A DNA stretch of 64,000 nucleotides from a virus. Within the stretch, counting starts at the first letter, position 1, and each line of letters begins with the position of its first letter. The translations under genes were made by a program, and so were the position numbers. The stretch is from the IMG/VR virus record IMGVR_UViG_3300042991_000780, positions 1 through 64,000 of that record, one strand, 5' to 3'. This document shows positions 31,846-36,873 of this stretch, in pieces. The notes below the pieces were generated by a model, which saw only the letters and a list, made by a program, of their open reading frames with translations, was not told the DNA's origin and did not search any database.

Positions 31846-32946
31846 CTAAAGAGTAAACCTATCTTGTTTACGAGCCTTTTTACGAAGTTCGTTTACTGTT
31901 CTGAGAGCATCTGGATCAAATCTTTCCCTTTTAACGACACTCACCATATGGTTGAATTCGTTTTCGGTGATAACCTGACCAATATATCCTTCGGTCTTGA
32001 GTACATAACTCTTTGGTGCTTTACTTGAAGCAGAAGGGTTACCTTCTGTATCAAGAGTTGCTTCAAAGGTCAACTCAAGAAGTTCCTGAATCTTTTCCTG
32101 AACACTTGCGGTCATACCCTGTTTTGTTTTCTTCAATGACCTTTCAAGCAAATCAACAATATTTTCCTGATGCTTTACTTTCAACTCATTATAAGTTTCG
32201 GTAAAATTCTGCATTGTTGATCTATTTTTCAACTCACTGATAATTGCAAGTGAACCATAGCAGTCACGGATCATCAAGTCCCATACCTGTTCTGCGTAAG
32301 TGAATGAAGGGAATTTGTCTATTGCAACAATTTCACCATCAACAAGTACGATGATACCGATAAGATTGCTTGGACGTTCAAAGTGAGCAATAAACTGTTC
32401 AAGTTTCTTGTCGTACTTTTCAAAGTAAACGTTCAAGTAGTTACCAGCGTTTGACTGAGTATCCTGACCCAATTTCTGAATAGCAGGATAAATCCTATGA
32501 TATGAACTTGGCTGTCCAACAGTGTCAAACACCATTTCACGCATGGTTACTGGAAGCATACGGAACTCCTGAGTACCACGAAAATGTCCGGTCTGTCCAC
32601 CCTGAACACAACCAGCATCGTGATAAGTAACGTTACCGTACTTTTCAACGTAACCTGCTTTGGTCATACCATGATTCTGAGCACTCTGCTTGGTCATAAC
32701 AGCCATCTGGGTAGGAAGAATAACTTCCTTATCAGCCTTATTAGCAAAACTAATCTGACCGTAAGAACTGTTACCAGCCTGAACCGAAGTCAATGGATTA
32801 GCAAAACGTTCATCCAAAGAATATTCCTTGTCAGTTGTCAAACATACGATCTGCATGTTCAAAATTGACTGAACGATAATGTTACCGTTTTTGTCTTTGA
32901 CTGGACGGCAACCTTTAAGCAATTCTGTAAATTCTCTTTTATTCAT
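31846..32946 (-). CDS. ARPP-1/DUF6569-like protein
   Basis: Motifs FANKADKEVILP...AQNH...GCVQGGQ and LIGIIVLVDGEIVAIDKFPS resemble the N..v.l..G..Q.R...CVE.G.W and vG.iv.i.G.v...D.F patterns of this family. Confidence 0.65.
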   Translation of the reverse strand: MNKREFTELLKGCRPVKDKNGNIIVQSILNMQIVCLTTDKEYSLDERFANPLTSVQAGNSSYGQISFANKADKEVILPTQMAVMTKQSAQNHGMTKAGYVEKYGNVTYHDAGCVQGGQTGHFRGTQEFRMLPVTMREMVFDTVGQPSSYHRIYPAIQKLGQDTQSNAGNYLNVYFEKYDKKLEQFIAHFERPSNLIGIIVLVDGEIVAIDKFPSFTYAEQVWDLMIRDCYGSLAIISELKNRSTMQNFTETYNELKVKHQENIVDLLERSLKKTKQGMTASVQEKIQELLELTFEATLDTEGNPSASSKAPKSYVLKTEGYIGQVITENEFNHMVSVVKRERFDPDALRTVNELRKKARKQDRFTL

Positions 32947-32957
32947 GATATGAAATA

Positions 32958-34592
32958 TTAAGCATTAATACTAATTTTTTTGTTCCTTTTAACAGGTGCT
33001 GCTTCAAGAGCAAGAACCTGATTTTCAAGCCACCTTTTGGTGTCAATTTCAAGCAACCTTGCGTTGATTTGTGGCTGCAAAGCAACGGGGTTATTTATTG
33101 CCATTGTGACAACTCCTGCACCAAGTTTCCTTACATTAGCACCCATTTCAGCACTCACGATTGGTGAAATTTGAAACATAGGTATATTTCTTCCGGTTTC
33201 TGCCTTCCAAATGTTGATAACTTCATTGGTAAGACCATCGTATGCGTTTTCGTATCCATCGGTTAAGATGAAGATTGCATCATATGGTTTTGAAGCATTT
33301 TCTGCTTTCAAAAGTCCAATAAATGAACTTGCCAAGTCAGTAACCTCACCATCAGTGTATTCAATACTGCAACTATTGGTTGCAGATTTGCTCAATACCC
33401 TTGCGGTAAAGTCAGCAATTGCCTTTGGAGTGTTCTTTGATTCAGCCTGATGACCACTCATTGAATTACTCATATCGACAATAATACCGATATTTGGGTA
33501 GAAGAATCCTACGATTTTCTTCTTGTCTGCAAGTTTGTCAATAGCACCCATTATTTCAGGAGTGAATTTTGTTTCATAACCTGTCTTGTAAAGTGCCAAG
33601 AAATCAGTTGCTTTTTCAAGATCAACATGTTTTTCAACACCCAACTTTGCAGTTGATTTTGTCTGACGAACCTGCTGGTTTACAGAAGTAACCTCAACAT
33701 TTTTCCTAATCAAAGCCTTTGTTGCTTCTCTCTGGATTTTTGTTGACCACATTGAATGATACTGAGGATGCTTTACGCTTGAAATCAAGCCAAGCAATAC
33801 TTCTTCAGGTACTTTCTTTGATGCAGTAATATCAGTCTTTGCTTTCTGATATTCACTCAAAAGAGGGAATACATTAGCATTAAACGTAACACCAGCATCT
33901 TTCTTGAAGATGAAAAGCATAAGTTTGAATGCTTTCATTGGATCACCATTGTAATACCTTAATATGTATTCATTCAAAATCTTCATTTCCTTTTCAGTTC
34001 CAACAACGAATTCACCAACGTTAGCAGCCTTGCCAGTAATTGAAAGCAACACAGATGTCATTTTCTTTCCATATGCGTGCCTCAAAGTATCGGCAATCTT
34101 GTTACGATATTTCATTGCATAGAATTCAAGGTTTTCCTGACCCCAGATGAAGCCAAGCATGATTTTCCTTGACCTTTCGTTGTTGATCTTTGCATTTTTC
34201 AATGAAACAAACAAACGAAGAACATATGGTAGACCACTTTCGCCAAGGTTGTTCAATGCTGAAAGCACTGCCTTATCGCTTAATCCGTTATCATACCAGT
34301 CAATTGGATTAACAATATTGCATGCTCCACCCTTTAAGGTACTTTTAAATTCATTAAACAATACCTCTGATACGAACTGACCAGTCGCACCCTTCTGAGT
34401 TGCAACTATCAACGGGAGTTCCTTTGAAAGTTTATACAAACTCTTAACCTGAGTCTGAATAGCCTTCACCTGTTCGTCACCCTTGTGGTAATAGGTAGCA
34501 CTACCTTTTGCACCACTTGCAATGGTAAGACCATCGATAAGTGACTGCTTTACCTTACTGAGCATGTTGTTTGCTAATACCAACTTTTCCAT
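32958..34592 (-). CDS. Divergent Ro60/Rsr-like (TROVE + vWA) RNA-binding protein
   Basis: 544 aa, close to Ro60 size. N-terminal GSATYY resembles Ro60 GGTYY; the middle is helical and Lys-rich; the C-terminal vWA has MIDAS IVDMSNSM, VTDLAS and DAIFILTDGYE (Ro60: VDVSxSM, GTDCSL, DVFIVFTDNE). The vWA call is firm and the TROVE call is likely. Confidence 0.65.
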   Translation of the reverse strand: MEKLVLANNMLSKVKQSLIDGLTIASGAKGSATYYHKGDEQVKAIQTQVKSLYKLSKELPLIVATQKGATGQFVSEVLFNEFKSTLKGGACNIVNPIDWYDNGLSDKAVLSALNNLGESGLPYVLRLFVSLKNAKINNERSRKIMLGFIWGQENLEFYAMKYRNKIADTLRHAYGKKMTSVLLSITGKAANVGEFVVGTEKEMKILNEYILRYYNGDPMKAFKLMLFIFKKDAGVTFNANVFPLLSEYQKAKTDITASKKVPEEVLLGLISSVKHPQYHSMWSTKIQREATKALIRKNVEVTSVNQQVRQTKSTAKLGVEKHVDLEKATDFLALYKTGYETKFTPEIMGAIDKLADKKKIVGFFYPNIGIIVDMSNSMSGHQAESKNTPKAIADFTARVLSKSATNSCSIEYTDGEVTDLASSFIGLLKAENASKPYDAIFILTDGYENAYDGLTNEVINIWKAETGRNIPMFQISPIVSAEMGANVRKLGAGVVTMAINNPVALQPQINARLLEIDTKRWLENQVLALEAAPVKRNKKISINA

Positions 34593-34722: not shown

Positions 34723-34753
34723 CGTTTTTTGGAATAACTCTTCTTCAAATTAA

Positions 34754-34847
34754 AGAAGAAGTGCGGTTGTATTGCCTGTAGTTTGTCTCCCTTCTCACAC
34801 GGGGGAGATTACATTTTTCAATTACTGTAAACACAGCCAGTTCTTCC
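34754..34847 (-). ncRNA. Y-RNA-like structured RNA, copy R1 (GC-rich hairpin insert)
   Basis: GGAAGAA-CT-GGCTGTGTTT-ACAGTAA...ACAGG-CAATACAACC-GCAC-TTCTTCT; insert hairpin TCTCCC/GGGAGA. Confidence 0.7.
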
Positions 34848-34927
34848 ATAAAAATTTATATTTTTTGAAAAAAATGCCACACACCTGTGACCAAAAAACC
34901 ATTTTTAACCGTCAAATGTTAGGATTC

Positions 34928-34997
34928 CAAGTGGGGATTTGGATTAATATTACTTGATTTATCAAATTTGTCTGCAATCCGCATATCGCTCCACTTG
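34928..34997 (-). ncRNA. Additional structured RNA candidate
   Basis: Nested stems CAAGTGG/CCACTTG, GGATT/AATCC and TTGAT/ATCAA, lying between R1 and R2. Confidence 0.4.
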
Positions 34998-35006
34998 TAT
35001 AATTTC

Positions 35007-35144
35007 GGGAATAATTTAAAAGTATTTGTTGTTTTTAATCAAAGTTTAAGAGACTTCTGACTTAACCGCTTGTCTATTTTTCAATTTTGGCTGAAAAAGA
35101 TGGATTCGAACCACCGTATTACTGTAAACACTTTTCGTTTTCCC
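35007..35144 (-). ncRNA. Y-RNA-like RNA R2 containing a circularly permuted tRNA-Lys(CUU)
   Basis: GGGAAAA-CG-AAAAGTGTTT-ACAGTAA, then T-arm, acceptor hairpin with GCCA in its loop, D-arm and anticodon arm, then ACAAC-AAATACTTTT...TTCCC. Confidence 0.8.
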
Positions 35145-35173
35145 TCAATATTTTAAAGAACTTCAATAAGTTT

Positions 35174-35253
35174 AGAAGAAATTCGTTGGTCTTGTTGTCG
35201 TTATTAGTTTGATTTCAAGTCAAATTGTTACTGTAAAAACCACCAGTTCTTCT
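35174..35253 (-). ncRNA. Y-RNA-like RNA R3 with an isolated anticodon-like stem-loop (UGA, Ser)
   Basis: AGAAGAA-CT-GGTGGTTTTT-ACAGTAA...TTTGA-CTTGAAA-TCAAA...ACAAC-AAGACCAAC-GAAT-TTCTTCT. Confidence 0.7.
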
Positions 35254-35303
35254 TTATATTTTAAATTTGTAGCAGGTTATTGTTTCAAATTTGAAATTTC
35301 AAA

Positions 35304-35312
35304 GTATTTATA
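35304..35312 (+). promoter_or_regulatory. GTATTTATA putative phage late-promoter motif (plus-strand copy)
   Basis: 13 nt upstream of the ATG of the only credible plus-strand gene; the same motif precedes more than 10 minus-strand genes. Confidence 0.6.
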
Positions 35313-35325
35313 ATAAATAGTACTT

Positions 35326-36003
35326 ATGAAACCAAATTATACCGAATCTGAATTTGACACAGCAACATCTACAAGTTTATTATCTTGTTTTTGTTATAAT
35401 TGTAACACCCTTTTTAATGTAATGAAGAAAAATATTGTACAGGAATTAAAGCATAAAAGAGGAAGAATAAAATTTTGTTCAAAGAAGTGTCATGATATTT
35501 ATCAATCAAATCAAATCTCCGTTATTTGTAATAATTGCGGTAAAACATTTACTAAAATAGCATCTGAAATTAAAACAAATAATTTTTGTTCAAATTCATG
35601 CGCTGCAATATATAATAACACACATAAAACAAAAGGCAATCGTAGGTCTAAACTTGAAACATATCTTGAAACACAACTCGCTGCACAATTTCCAAATTTA
35701 GAAATATTATTCAACGATAAAAAAACAATTAATTCCGAACTGGATATTTACATACCCAGACTTCACCTTGCTTTTGAACTTAATGGTATTTTTCATTACG
35801 AACCTATCTATGGTCAAAATAAATTGAGTCAAATTCAAAATAATGATAATCGTAAATTTCAAGCCTGTTTAGAACAAGAAATTGAATTGTGTATTATTGA
35901 TGTTTCACATCAAAAATATTTTAAAGAAAACACTTCAAAAAAGTATTTAGACATTCTCATTACAATTATAAACAATAAGTCAATGAACATGTTAAACATT
36001 TAG
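35326..36003 (+). CDS. Zn-finger + Vsr/PD-(D/E)XK-like putative homing endonuclease
   Basis: CxxC...FCSxxC zinc motifs twice; ELDIYIP...AFELNGIFHY nuclease motif; antisense to the ncRNA operon. Confidence 0.75.
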   Translation: MKPNYTESEFDTATSTSLLSCFCYNCNTLFNVMKKNIVQELKHKRGRIKFCSKKCHDIYQSNQISVICNNCGKTFTKIASEIKTNNFCSNSCAAIYNNTHKTKGNRRSKLETYLETQLAAQFPNLEILFNDKKTINSELDIYIPRLHLAFELNGIFHYEPIYGQNKLSQIQNNDNRKFQACLEQEIELCIIDVSHQKYFKENTSKKYLDILITIINNKSMNMLNI

Positions 36004-36059
36004 TCAATCTATCGATTGTGCAGTAATTACCACGTGCAGGTAGTTTAACTTTAATTACT

Positions 36060-36133
36060 TAGCGGGAGATGGATTCGAACCACCGACCTTAACGTTATGA
36101 GCGTCACGAGCTAACCACTGCTACTACCCCGCA
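36060..36133 (-). tRNA. tRNA-Met(CAU)
   Basis: TGCGGGG-TA-GTAGC-AGTGGTTA-GCTC-G-TGACG-CTCATAA-CGTTA-AGGTC-GGTGG-TTCGAAT-CCATC-TCCCGCT-A; no encoded CCA. Confidence 0.85.
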
Positions 36134-36573
36134 ATATGTTTTTCCAATAAATCCCATGCTTCTCTATATTCATGAGATTTTGGCTTTCTCTGTCTGGATA
36201 CTTTTTCATGTAATGTTATTGAACCCGCAAATGAATTAAAAATATTAACAGGTACAACATAAAACACTTTTAGTTCTGAAATGAAAATTATTGCAAAATT
36301 AAAATCATTATTGGAATATTTTTCTCTTTTCATCACACGTCTATTTGTTTTGGTTCTTCTCACATCAATCAAATAAACTCCTTCTTCTTTTGATAACCAC
36401 GCTGACTTAACTTGTATCTTAATAAATTTATTATTAATAACAATGACCAAATCATATGGTAATCTATCACCTACCGGAATTAAAACATCCCATCCCAATT
36501 GAAGTGCTTTTAATTGTACTTCAATCTCCGCAATATCACCTTTCATTTTAGTATCCATAATCTCAAAGAACAT
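36124..36573 (-). CDS. PD-(D/E)XK homing endonuclease, I-Ssp6803I-like; real start probably 36558
   Basis: KGDIAE...GWDVLIPVGDRLPYDLVI...IKIQVKS motif; the last codons and stop overlap the tRNA-Met 5' end; the first ATG lies in a boxA-like site. Confidence 0.8.
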   Translation of the reverse strand: MFFEIMDTKMKGDIAEIEVQLKALQLGWDVLIPVGDRLPYDLVIVINNKFIKIQVKSAWLSKEEGVYLIDVRRTKTNRRVMKREKYSNNDFNFAIIFISELKVFYVVPVNIFNSFAGSITLHEKVSRQRKPKSHEYREAWDLLEKHIAG

Positions 36574-36586
36574 TTAATAAGATAAA

Positions 36587-36718
36587 AAAGGAAAATTTGT
36601 TTGTTATTTCTGTTATAAACAATGATGGAATTGAACCACCAACATTCTGCTTGACGTGCAAACACTCTAACCAGTTGAGTTAATTGTAATTTACTGTAAT
36701 AACAACACCGTTTCCTTT
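36587..36718 (-). ncRNA. Y-RNA-like RNA R4 containing a near-complete tRNA-Asp(GUC)-like body
   Basis: AAGGAAA-CG-GTGTTGTTATT-ACAGTAA, cloverleaf at 36687-36619, then ACAGA-AATAACAAAC-AAAT-TTTCCTT. Confidence 0.75.
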
Positions 36719-36723
36719 TTTTG

Positions 36724-36810
36724 TGGGGAGAACAGGAATCGAACCTGTAATCAATTGTGTTTAAAACAATTTGCTTTACCTTATTTACTGTAAACACTTC
36801 AAGTTCTCCC
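36724..36810 (-). ncRNA. Y-RNA-like/tRNA hybrid RNA R5
   Basis: GGGAGAA-CT-TGAAGTGTTT-ACAGTAA...TAAACAC...ACAGG-TTCGATT-CCTGT-TCTCCCC-A; the terminal helix directly follows a canonical T-arm. Confidence 0.7.
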
Positions 36811-36873
36811 TTACGGGAGCAATGAGATAGTATTTTCGTTATTTTGATTTGCTATCTCCCCATTTAAAAGTTT

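What the first reader, a model, noticed from the sequence alone, without database searches (positions are those of the whole stretch)
35041..35115. Complete circularly permuted tRNA-Lys(CUU) with NCCA inside a loop
Seen, minus strand: T-arm GGTGG-TTCGAAT-CCATC, acceptor 3' strand TTTTTCA, G-CCA-AAAT linker, acceptor 5' strand TGAAAAA, TA, D-arm GAC-AAGCGGTTAA-GTC, A, anticodon arm GAAGT-CTCTTAA-ACTTT. The tRNA is opened at the variable loop, where the scaffold stem attaches. YrlA has the same T-acceptor-D order but replaces the anticodon arm; here all four arms and CCA remain. Inference: either an uncharged Lys decoy (tRNA-Lys is a frequent target of anti-phage nucleases) or a precursor whose linker is cut to give a two-piece chargeable tRNA, as in permuted tmRNA.
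Basis: partly seen in the sequence, partly recalled or inferred. Interest (0 to 1): 0.85.

Follow-up and report, generated by a model that had tools for sequence, protein, structure and literature searches.

The report
Whole-tRNA mimic on Ro60-like handle
A giant phage encodes a 138-base RNA that is a complete tRNA shape written in rotated order and hung by its variable loop on a stem shared with neighbouring small RNAs, next to a Ro60-shaped protein gene; it is a new variant of the known tRNA-mimicking Y RNAs, not a working or decoy lysine tRNA.

Summary
Window 35007-35144 (minus strand) is a 138-nt RNA made of a two-helix handle, a T arm, a 7-bp acceptor stem closed by G-CCA-AAAU, a D arm and an anticodon arm. 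Orthologs occur in 71 of 73 related jumbo-phage loci, always upstream of a divergent Ro60-shaped protein gene. All six helices covary, and the tertiary 15:48 pair covaries without exception (G:C 44, A:U 6). All 50 distinct orthologs are called tRNA once re-joined, none in native order.

The lysine identity is not conserved. There are 26 different loops and 14 'anticodons', and complete relatives carry ordinary tRNA-Lys genes. CCA follows the acceptor stem in 34 of 50 orthologs, against 12 of 140 genuine phage tRNA genes. The junction copies the phage's pre-tRNA RNase P context (U-1, G+1).

My reading is a YrlA-type Y RNA of new topology, possibly opened by RNase P as M. smegmatis YrlA is. Opening is not essential: 8 of 50 orthologs and a distant relative have capped acceptor stems without CCA.

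This scan noted the same RNA family before on other phage genomes, where it was read as Ser or Tyr.

The parts
35007..35144 (-). Whole RNA (138 nt): handle plus permuted whole-tRNA module
   Evidence: Covariance model R1 scores it 150.6 bits. Orthologs above 113 bits occur in 71 of 73 related loci.
35140..35144 (-). Outer handle helix, 5' strand GGGAA
   Evidence: Pairs with 35007-35011. Invariant in 35 of 35 orthologs.
35007..35011 (-). Outer handle helix, 3' strand UUCCC
35126..35135 (-). Inner handle helix, 5' strand AAAAGUGUUU
   Evidence: 10-bp helix with 35018-35027. Three of its pairs show compensatory changes.
35018..35027 (-). Inner handle helix, 3' strand AAAUACUUUU
35119..35125 (-). 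Junction motif ACAGUAA, part of the UUACAGUAA shared by five RNAs of the array
   Evidence: 7 matches in the window against 1.5 expected, five of them in the 2-kb array on this strand. Nearly invariant in orthologs.
35116..35118 (-). UAC, equivalent to tRNA positions 46-48; C48 is at 35116
   Evidence: The 15:48 Levitt pair covaries: G:C in 44, A:U in 6, no violations.
35099..35115 (-). T arm GGUGG-UUCGAAU-CCAUC
   Evidence: Three of five pairs covary. The UUCRANU loop is conserved.
35092..35098 (-). Acceptor stem, 3' strand UUUUUCA
   Evidence: All 7 pairs covary and the stem is always 7 bp.
35088..35091 (-). Discriminator G73 plus encoded CCA
   Evidence: CCA is present in 34 of 50 distinct orthologs, while the linker interior is 4.4% C. 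Only 12 of 140 genuine phage tRNA genes encode CCA.
35084..35087 (-). Linker AAAU, the equivalent of an inter-tRNA spacer; U(-1) is at 35084
   Evidence: Linker length is 5-23 nt across orthologs. U(-1) occurs in 39 of 50, against 106 of 140 in genuine phage pre-tRNAs.
35077..35083 (-). Acceptor stem, 5' strand UGAAAAA; the predicted RNase P site lies 5' of 35083
   Evidence: Pairing. The cleavage site is inferred, not shown.
35059..35076 (-). U8-A9 and D arm GAC-AAGCGGUUAA-GUC
   Evidence: U8:A14 is invariant, G18G19 is present in 34 of 35, and the D stem covaries.
35041..35058 (-). A26 and anticodon arm GAAGU-CUCUUAA-ACUUU (CUU at 35050-35048)
   Evidence: All 5 stem pairs covary and the loop is 7 nt in 49 of 50, but the loop sequence varies: 26 variants.
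35028..35040 (-). 3' junction GAUUAAAAACAAC (positions 44-45, then the A/C-rich handle strand)
   Evidence: The 26:44 combinations are AC 27, AG 10, GU 9 and GA 4. The ...ACAAC block is conserved.
32958..34592 (-). Gene of the 544-aa Ro60-shaped protein (helical-repeat ring plus vWA); inferred binding partner
   Evidence: No Pfam, PHROG or PDB sequence hit. The AF2 model (pLDDT 72.9) matches only Ro60/TROVE structures at full length: Foldseek top 12, E 7e-6 to 9e-4, and VIA Z 11.4-14.6 with about 400 aligned residues. Binding itself is not shown.

Best explanation
This is a small non-coding RNA of the Y-RNA kind. A two-helix handle with the conserved UUACAGUAA / ACAAC junction is shared with four neighbouring RNAs. 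It most likely docks the RNA on the Ro60-shaped ring protein encoded 0.4 kb downstream. The cargo is a complete L-shaped tRNA mimic attached through its variable-loop region, so that the elbow, the anticodon arm and the acceptor end are all displayed. The mimic is generic, not lysine-specific. Like YrlA, it probably recruits a tRNA-binding factor to the Ro60-like particle. These phages carry 36-65 tRNA genes, so tRNA or RNA quality control is the likeliest setting (inference).

In this clade the acceptor end is built like a junction between two tandem tRNA genes: R73-CCA, an A/U spacer, then U(-1) and G/U(+1). I think it somewhat more likely than not that RNase P cuts before +1 and exonucleases trim back to CCA. 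That would give a two-piece, CCA-ended RNA still held together by the handle, as shown for M. smegmatis YrlA.

Shown here: sequence, fold, conservation, context, and the Ro60-like fold of the neighbouring protein. Inferred: binding, cleavage and the effector.
For: - Structure and tertiary covariation.
- Orthologs in 71 of 73 loci, always on the protein's strand and 0.2-2 kb upstream.
- Handle shared with other cargo RNAs.
- Ro60-only full-length structural matches for the neighbouring protein.
- Anticodon loop not conserved.
- Canonical tRNA-Lys(CUU and UUU) present in three complete relatives, and no special similarity of this RNA to them.
- Invariant 7-bp acceptor stem.
- CCA in 34 of 50 orthologs against 12 of 140 genuine tRNA genes. 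U(-1) 78% against 76%, and G(+1) 78% against 75%.
- Precedent: M. smegmatis YrlA has a 7-bp acceptor stem, is cut by RNase P in vivo and in vitro, gains CCA, and both halves stay with Rsr (PMC4201824).
- A CCA-adding-family enzyme is encoded in 5 of 5 complete relatives.
Against: - No expression, binding or cleavage data exist.
- The protein's Ro60 likeness rests on a medium-confidence model (TM about 0.36) and no sequence-level link to TROVE, even for distant family members.
- 8 of 50 orthologs have a C-NNN-G capped acceptor stem without CCA, and a distant relative (L104) caps it with a GUAA tetraloop. Opening therefore cannot be essential to the family.
- N73 and N(-1) can pair in 45 of 50, so U(-1) may simply extend a closed stem.
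- CCA has decayed several times, to CAA, CUA, UCA and CCC.
Confidence: 0.55

Rival explanations
1. Same Ro60-like particle and same tRNA mimicry, but the RNA stays in one piece. The acceptor stem is really 8 bp (N73 pairs with N-1). The looped CCA serves as a recognition element for a CCA-reading protein, or as the known anti-determinant that keeps RNase Z from cutting after N73.
For: - 73:(-1) can pair in 45 of 50 orthologs.
- Capped CCA-less forms occur in 8 of 50 orthologs and as a GUAA-capped form in the distant L104.
- Most YrlA RNAs are closed (10.1101/312249).
Against: - The stem is kept at exactly 7 bp plus the discriminator.
- The long (17-23 nt) unconserved A/U linkers look like spacers.
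- U(-1)/G(+1) frequencies equal those of genuine pre-tRNAs.
- The M. smegmatis precedent shows cleavage.
Confidence: 0.3
2. A lysine-specific decoy: an uncharged tRNA-Lys(CUU) look-alike that soaks up host anticodon nucleases aimed at tRNA-Lys.
For: - The CUCUUAA loop is present in the window and in 9 of 50 distinct orthologs, some with only 71-78% identical proteins.
- tRNA-Lys is a known target of defence nucleases (general knowledge).
Against: - 26 loop variants and 14 triplets, read as Lys, Asn, Ser, His, Thr, 'stop' and others. U33 is missing in 15 of 49.
- No special similarity to phage tRNA-Lys.
- G73 here against A73 in the phage tRNA-Lys genes.
Confidence: 0.05
3. A true permuted tRNA gene. 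The handle is excised and the ends ligated to a circle, then RNase P and 3' trimming release a functional tRNA, as in red and green algae and Thermofilum pendens.
For: - The gene order matches: 3' half, CCA, short intervening sequence, 5' half.
- T. pendens permuted tRNAs also encode CCA (PMC3978253).
Against: - No bulge-helix-bulge motif at the junction. The handle is a 10-bp helix, a 4/6 internal loop and a 5-bp helix.
- No junction of this type (variable loop) is known.
- Bacteria lack the splicing endonuclease (10.1101/312249).
- The anticodon is not conserved, and the phages already have full tRNA sets.
- The same handle carries non-tRNA cargo.
- RtcB is present in only 1 of 5 complete relatives.
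Confidence: 0.04
4. The handle is not a Ro60 handle. It binds another protein or is a processing signal of a polycistronic RNA array, and the adjacency to the Ro60-shaped gene is only synteny.
For: - The YrlA 5' motif GNCGAAN0-1G is not conserved.
- Rfam YrlA does not match.
- The RNAs abut one another and are probably co-transcribed.
Against: - Linkage holds in 71 of 73 loci across proteins 59-97% identical, and again in a relative with a far more divergent protein.
- The structural matches are to Ro60 only.
Confidence: 0.06

Closest known systems
YrlA (Y RNA-like A, Rfam RF02553), especially Mycobacterium smegmatis YrlA
   Same: - Encoded next to a Ro60-type gene, on the same strand.
- T arm, acceptor stem-loop and D arm in that order.
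- tRNA tertiary nucleotides conserved, including a covarying 15:48 pair.
- The M. smegmatis form has a 7-bp acceptor stem, is cut by RNase P and ends in CCA (PMC4201824).
   Different: - In YrlA the 5' and 3' strands form the anticodon stem and run on into the Ro60-binding stem, so there is no anticodon loop and CCA is not encoded (10.1101/312249).
- Here the anticodon arm is a closed 5-bp/7-nt hairpin, the handle leaves from the variable loop, and R-CCA is encoded in most members.
- The handle lacks the GNCGAAN0-1G motif and RF02553 does not match.
- The protein is not recognisable as TROVE by sequence.
Deinococcus radiodurans Yrn1
   Same: A Y RNA with tRNA-like parts, including a possible 5-bp 'anticodon arm' (PMC4201824).
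   Different: Yrn1 is in ordinary (non-permuted) order, with the Ro stem at the acceptor position, a 6-nt loop and no clear D arm. It resembles the neighbouring RNA at 36590-36715, not this one.
Circularly permuted tRNA genes of Cyanidioschyzon, green algae and Thermofilum pendens
   Same: The 3' half lies upstream of the 5' half, and a short intervening sequence closes the acceptor stem. The T. pendens genes encode CCA (PMC3978253).
   Different: Those have BHB splice motifs, junctions at 20/21, 37/38, 50/51 or 59/60, and mature into real tRNAs. Here there is no BHB, the junction is in the variable loop, and the anticodon is not conserved.
Two-piece (permuted) tmRNA
   Same: Acceptor 3' piece with CCA encoded upstream of the 5' piece. 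The two pieces stay paired after processing.
   Different: There is no tag reading frame here, and ARAGORN's tmRNA search finds nothing. The partner protein and the handle are different.
Tandem (dimeric) tRNA transcripts, proposed ancestors of YrlA (Sim and Wolin 2018, as cited in 10.1101/312249)
   Same: The module reads exactly like the junction of two tandem tRNAs: T arm, acceptor 3' strand, CCA, spacer, acceptor 5' strand, D arm and anticodon arm. The model built from it also hits a real tRNA pair in L104.
   Different: Both acceptor strands are complementary, the outer halves are replaced by the handle, and the whole is conserved as one unit.

Membership tests
YrlA (RF02553) | Encoded beside a Ro60/Rsr gene | tested here: met
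   The 544-aa neighbour has a Ro60-only full-length structural match. The linkage holds in 71 of 73 loci. The similarity is at the fold level only.
YrlA (RF02553) | T arm, closed acceptor stem-loop and D arm in this order, with tRNA tertiary nucleotides | tested here: met
   U8:A14 is invariant, G18G19 is present in 34 of 35, and 15:48 covaries 50 of 50.
YrlA (RF02553) | Anticodon stem formed by the RNA's 5' and 3' parts and continuing into the Ro-binding stem, with no anticodon loop | tested here: not met
   A closed 5-bp/7-nt anticodon hairpin is conserved and covarying. The handle leaves from the variable loop.
YrlA (RF02553) | 5' motif GNCGAAN0-1G | tested here: not met
   The invariant 5' block is GGGAAAAC. 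The following CGAA of the window is CUGA, CGUA or CUUA in orthologs.
YrlA (RF02553) | Reaches the Rfam gathering score (69 bits) | tested here: not met
   No RF02553 match on this RNA even at E<=10, and none in five orthologous loci at E<=0.1.
Functional tRNA (RF00005) | Contiguous cloverleaf detected by tRNA finders | tested here: not met
   ARAGORN and Rfam do not call it in native order. 0 of 50 orthologs are called in native order.
Functional tRNA (RF00005) | All four arms and the core tertiary pairs | tested here: met
   All 50 re-joined orthologs are called tRNA. Tertiary pairs.
Functional tRNA (RF00005) | Anticodon and U33 conserved among orthologs | tested here: not met
   14 triplets and 26 loops. 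U33 is present in 34 of 49.
Functional tRNA (RF00005) | Aminoacylation | not testable with these tools
   Needs acid-gel or charging assays.
Permuted tRNA genes (algae, archaea) | [quoted passage not shown] | tested here: met
Permuted tRNA genes (algae, archaea) | Bulge-helix-bulge motif at the junction of the termini | tested here: not met
   The consensus structure is a 10-bp helix, a 4/6-nt internal loop and a 5-bp helix. This was judged by inspection; no dedicated BHB scan was run.
Permuted tRNA genes (algae, archaea) | Circular intermediate and mature tRNA | not testable with these tools
   Needs RNA analysis.
Two-piece tmRNA | Tag-peptide reading frame and tmRNA pseudoknots | tested here: not met
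   ARAGORN's tmRNA mode on the whole 95-kb contig finds none.
Ro60/TROVE protein (the partner) | Pfam TROVE domain by sequence | tested here: not met
   No Pfam hit for the window protein or for ten distant family members. No PDB hit by profile.
Ro60/TROVE protein (the partner) | Helical-repeat ring followed by a vWA/MIDAS domain | tested here: met
   The AF2 model aligns over residues 16-530 to Ro60 structures only, Z 11.4-14.6. The DxSxS motif is invariant.

The most novel reading that the evidence does not exclude
After RNase P opens the linker, the two-piece CCA-ended RNA is a real substrate of the translation apparatus. It would be charged by a synthetase or bound by EF-Tu or the CCA-adding enzyme while riding on the Ro60-like ring. 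That would make it a phage-made, protein-tethered tRNA whose fast-changing anticodon loop tracks host factors such as tRNA-targeting defence nucleases.
Probability: 0.08. Interest if true: 0.85.

Novelty: new variant of a known kind. Interest (0 to 1): 0.6.

Why it matters
Y RNAs that mimic tRNA are known, but their tRNA-like domain has no assigned partner or function. This family differs in four useful ways.
- It keeps the whole tRNA: anticodon arm, 7-bp acceptor stem, and mostly an encoded CCA.
- It attaches the protein handle at a new point, the variable loop.
- It occurs in more than 70 jumbo-phage genomes beside a Ro60-shaped protein family that no sequence model recognises.
- Natural variants exist with CCA plus a short spacer, CCA plus a long spacer, or a capped stem without CCA.

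That gives a ready-made comparative series for asking what the acceptor end does. It offers a visible intermediate for the proposed origin of YrlA from tandem tRNAs. It also widens the Ro60/Y-RNA system to phages that carry near-complete tRNA sets.

Tried and rejected
- Rfam at gathering and at E<=10 found no family for this RNA; a weak YrlA hit (22.9 bits) lies on a neighbouring RNA.
- A distant-mode search of the annotated phage collection matched only the tRNA-Met gene.
- Pfam, PHROGs, and PDB sequence and profile searches of the 544-aa protein gave nothing.
- Pfam on ten distant family members gave no TROVE hit.
- The sigma-70 promoter scan was not above shuffles: 15 found against 13.8 expected.
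- The mismatched-halves control for ARAGORN was uninformative, with 31 of 48 still called.
- Mapping the CCA and linker classes on the protein tree gave no clean clades, so I could not count independent losses.
The contexts of most distant protein relatives could therefore not be fetched.
- `search for related loci` seeded with P0139 returned the same loci as before, and with P0152 returned nothing.
- The review PMC10870794 is not held.
- Rejected readings: chance resemblance, working tRNA-Lys, Lys-specific decoy, algal-type permuted tRNA gene, and tmRNA. Reasons are under the rival explanations and the membership test.

Full report
**1. What is there**

On the minus strand, window 35144-35007 reads as follows (exact coordinates are in the parts list):
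- outer helix GGGAA, then AAACG, then inner helix AAAAGUGUUU
- junction ACAGUAA-UAC
- T arm GGUGG-UUCGAAU-CCAUC
- acceptor 3' strand UUUUUCA, then G-CCA, then linker AAAU, then acceptor 5' strand UGAAAAA
- UA, then D arm GAC-AAGCGGUUAA-GUC, then A
- anticodon arm GAAGU-CUCUUAA-ACUUU
- junction GAUUAAAAACAAC, then AAAUACUUUU, then AAAUUA, then UUCCC

No sizeable ORF overlaps it. ARAGORN and Rfam do not see it in native order. Re-joined as 5' half, 4-5 flanking bases as variable loop, then 3' half, it is called tRNA-Lys(CUU).

**2. Context**

The stretch 34750-36870 holds five minus-strand RNAs with the motif UUACAGUAA. The window has 7 matches against 1.5 expected, and five of them are in this array. 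All five have the same two-helix handle but different cargo.

Interspersed are a tRNA-Met gene, a PD-(D/E)XK endonuclease ORF and an HNH endonuclease ORF. Flanking genes are phage-like: DnaB-type helicase and 5'-3' exonuclease. The assembly is a 95-kb fragment, 31% complete, of a virus record.

Directly downstream lies a 544-aa ORF (34592-32958).
- It has no Pfam, PHROG or PDB sequence match.
- It has an invariant DxSxS vWA motif.
- Its AlphaFold model (pLDDT 72.9) matches only Ro60/TROVE structures over its full length. Foldseek's top 12 have E 7e-6 to 9e-4 with TM about 0.36. VIA-align gives Z 11.4-14.6 with about 400 residues aligned, and only vWA-domain matches follow below.

I accept 'Ro60-shaped' and not 'TROVE family member'. 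Ten distant members of its family also lack any TROVE hit (the family has 376 clusters at 50% identity). The next gene carries an ARPP-1 domain. One distant relative is a Ro60-like/ARPP-1 fusion (P0267).

**3. Comparative evidence**

The protein has relatives in 73 IMG/VR loci, on contigs up to 365 kb.

A covariance model built from a MAFFT alignment of 35 orthologs finds this RNA at more than 113 bits in 71 of the 73 loci. It is always on the protein's strand and upstream of the gene. The other handle-bearing RNAs score 46 bits or less. Fifty of the orthologs are distinct.

RNAalifold independently returns the six helices. On that alignment:
- 98.7% of cells pair.
- 20 of 35 pairs and 179 cells carry double changes.
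- 0 of 500 shuffles reach the observed values.
- Slid controls pair 38-56%.
- Every pair of the acceptor and anticodon stems covaries.

Tertiary positions behave like a real tRNA:
- U8:A14 is invariant.
- G18G19 is present in 34 of 35.
- The T loop is UUCRANU.
- The Levitt pair is G15:C48 in 44 and A15:U48 in 6, with no exception. Nucleotide 48 is the base just 5' of the T stem.

The module therefore folds as an L and is opened between positions 45 and 47.

All 50 distinct orthologs are called tRNA when re-joined, none in native order, and none of 1000 shuffles.

**4. Lysine identity**

The 7-nt loop has 26 variants among 50 sequences, giving 14 triplets. The commonest are CUU 11, GUU 8, AUU 6, UUA 5, UGA 5 and AUG 4. 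U33 is kept in 34 of 49. Only U35, A37 and A38 are fairly constant.

Complete relatives carry 36-65 tRNA genes. These include ordinary tRNA-Lys(CUU) and tRNA-Lys(UUU) with A73, whereas the window RNA has G73. The re-joined modules are 63-70% identical to assorted tRNAs (median 55-58%), and tRNA-Lys is not among the best matches.

A lysine tRNA or a lysine-specific decoy is therefore not supported. The arm is conserved as a shape.

**5. The acceptor end**

The stem is always 7 bp. After it, 34 of 50 orthologs have CCA (GCCA 19, ACCA 14, UCCA 1), although the rest of the linker is 4.4% C.

Linkers fall into three classes:
- 7-10 nt in 23 orthologs
- 17-23 nt in 19
- a 5-nt C-NNN-G cap without CCA in 8

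As a control I took 140 genuine tRNA genes from three complete relatives.

| Feature | This RNA (50 orthologs) | Genuine phage tRNA genes (140) |
|---|---|---|
| Full CCA encoded | 34 (68%) | 12 (9%) |
| U at -1 | 39 (78%) | 106 (76%) |
| G at +1 | 39 (78%) | 105 (75%) |

Most genuine genes (119) encode only N73-C74 followed by an A-rich trailer. Their nearby upstream T content is 30%.

So the junction copies the phage's RNase P context, and the 3' side goes beyond the genuine genes. All five complete relatives encode a CCA-adding-family domain.

Chen et al. showed that M. smegmatis YrlA, the one YrlA with a 7-bp acceptor stem, is cut by RNase P in vivo and in vitro. It acquires CCA, and both halves remain with Rsr (PMC4201824). 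This makes cleavage of the window RNA plausible.

Four things count against it as a core function:
- the capped class
- repeated decay of CCA to CAA, CUA, UCA or CCC, scattered over the protein tree
- possible N73:N(-1) pairing in 45 of 50
- a distant relative

That relative is L104, at 43% GC with a much more divergent protein. Its RNA has the same order, the same ACAGU junction and a GUAA-capped 7-bp acceptor stem. It folds alone with z = -4.5.

**6. Comparison with the known**

[quoted passage not shown] Its anticodon stem is made by the 5' and 3' parts and leads to the Ro60 site (10.1101/312249).

The present RNA shares the concept, the neighbourhood and the T-acceptor-D order. It fails three defining features: the anticodon-stem topology, the 5' GNCGAA motif and the Rfam model. 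It adds a closed anticodon arm, a variable-loop attachment and an encoded CCA.

Known permuted tRNA genes have BHB motifs and junctions at 20/21, 37/38, 50/51 or 59/60, and are limited to algae and archaea (PMC3978253).

Phage Ro60 with Y-like RNAs is known from mycobacteriophages, CcrColossus, Bacillus phage G and Thermus phage phiLo (PMC4201824; PMC12135203). TROVE proteins have been noted in some jumbo phages (PMC7824862). I found no description of this topology in the held literature.

The module looks exactly like the junction of two tandem tRNAs. The model also picks up a genuine tRNA pair in L104. This fits the dimeric-tRNA origin proposed for YrlA.

**7. Verdict**

It is a new variant of a known kind. 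Earlier notes of this scan reached the same reading for the same family on other phage genomes, where the module was read as Ser(GCU) or Tyr. That agrees with the variable loop found here.

Noticed in passing
window 36590-36715 (-) and L063:4700-4830: A handle RNA whose cargo is a tRNA in ordinary order, joined through a shortened acceptor stem with no CCA. The window copy has an Asp-like GUC loop with C33 (44.5 bits to Rfam tRNA). The L063 counterpart scores 61.8 bits.
   Followed up: partly
window 36724-36861 (-): A tRNA-like RNA with normal ends (GGGGAGA/UCUCCCC acceptor stem). It carries the same handle, closed by a GUAA loop, as an insertion in its D loop. In many relatives its 3' end directly abuts the 5' GGG of the RNA studied here.
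   Followed up: partly
window 35174-35253 (-) and 34754-34850 (-): Two further handle RNAs. One has only a 5-bp/7-nt hairpin as cargo, the other a GC-rich hairpin. The first is hit weakly by the model (30.6 bits).
   Followed up: no
window 34870-35000 (-): A stretch between two handle RNAs has a long-range pairing CAAGUGGAG...CCCCACUUGG and a terminator-like hairpin (34891-34876) followed by U7. It may be another small RNA or the end of a transcription unit.
   Followed up: no
window 36059-36573 (-) and 35326-36003 (+): A PD-(D/E)XK_5 endonuclease ORF has a stop codon that overlaps the 5' end of a tRNA-Met gene. An HNH homing-endonuclease-like ORF lies on the other strand. Both are lodged inside the RNA array, and a tRNA-Met is also present in the arrays of relatives (L010:4114-4185, L063:4850-4937).
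   Followed up: no
L074-L080 (tRNA clusters of complete relatives G001, G003, G004): Genuine phage tRNA genes mostly encode N73-C74 and then an A-rich trailer (ACAA 44, UCAA 14, GCAA 13 of 140). 76% have U at -1. Full CCA is rare, at 12 of 140.
   Followed up: yes
L076/L078/L080 (G003, G004, G001): Each complete relative carries a tRNA with anticodon CUA, which ARAGORN labels 'Pyl(cta)'. This is an amber suppressor and hints at TAG read-through or recoding in these phages.
   Followed up: no
G001-G005 (for example G003:C1:60144-60530): The CCA-adding/poly(A)-polymerase-family domain lies in very long open frames of 749-2259 aa in all five complete relatives.
   Followed up: no
P0267 (884 aa) and window 31846-32946 (-): A distant family member fuses the Ro60-shaped protein to an ARPP-1 domain. 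In the window the two are adjacent genes, so they probably act together.
   Followed up: partly
upstream of the RNA, window 35145-35165 and about 17 of 50 orthologous loci: A shared A/T-rich block, GUUCUUUAAAAAUAYWAA, sits directly before the 5' GGG. A similar block precedes the neighbouring RNA at 35253. It may be a phage promoter or a processing signal.
   Followed up: partly
Ro60-like protein tree against RNA classes: The three acceptor/linker classes (capped, GCCA with short spacer, ACCA with long spacer) are interspersed on the protein tree. This suggests exchange of RNA modules between phages, or repeated change.
   Followed up: partly
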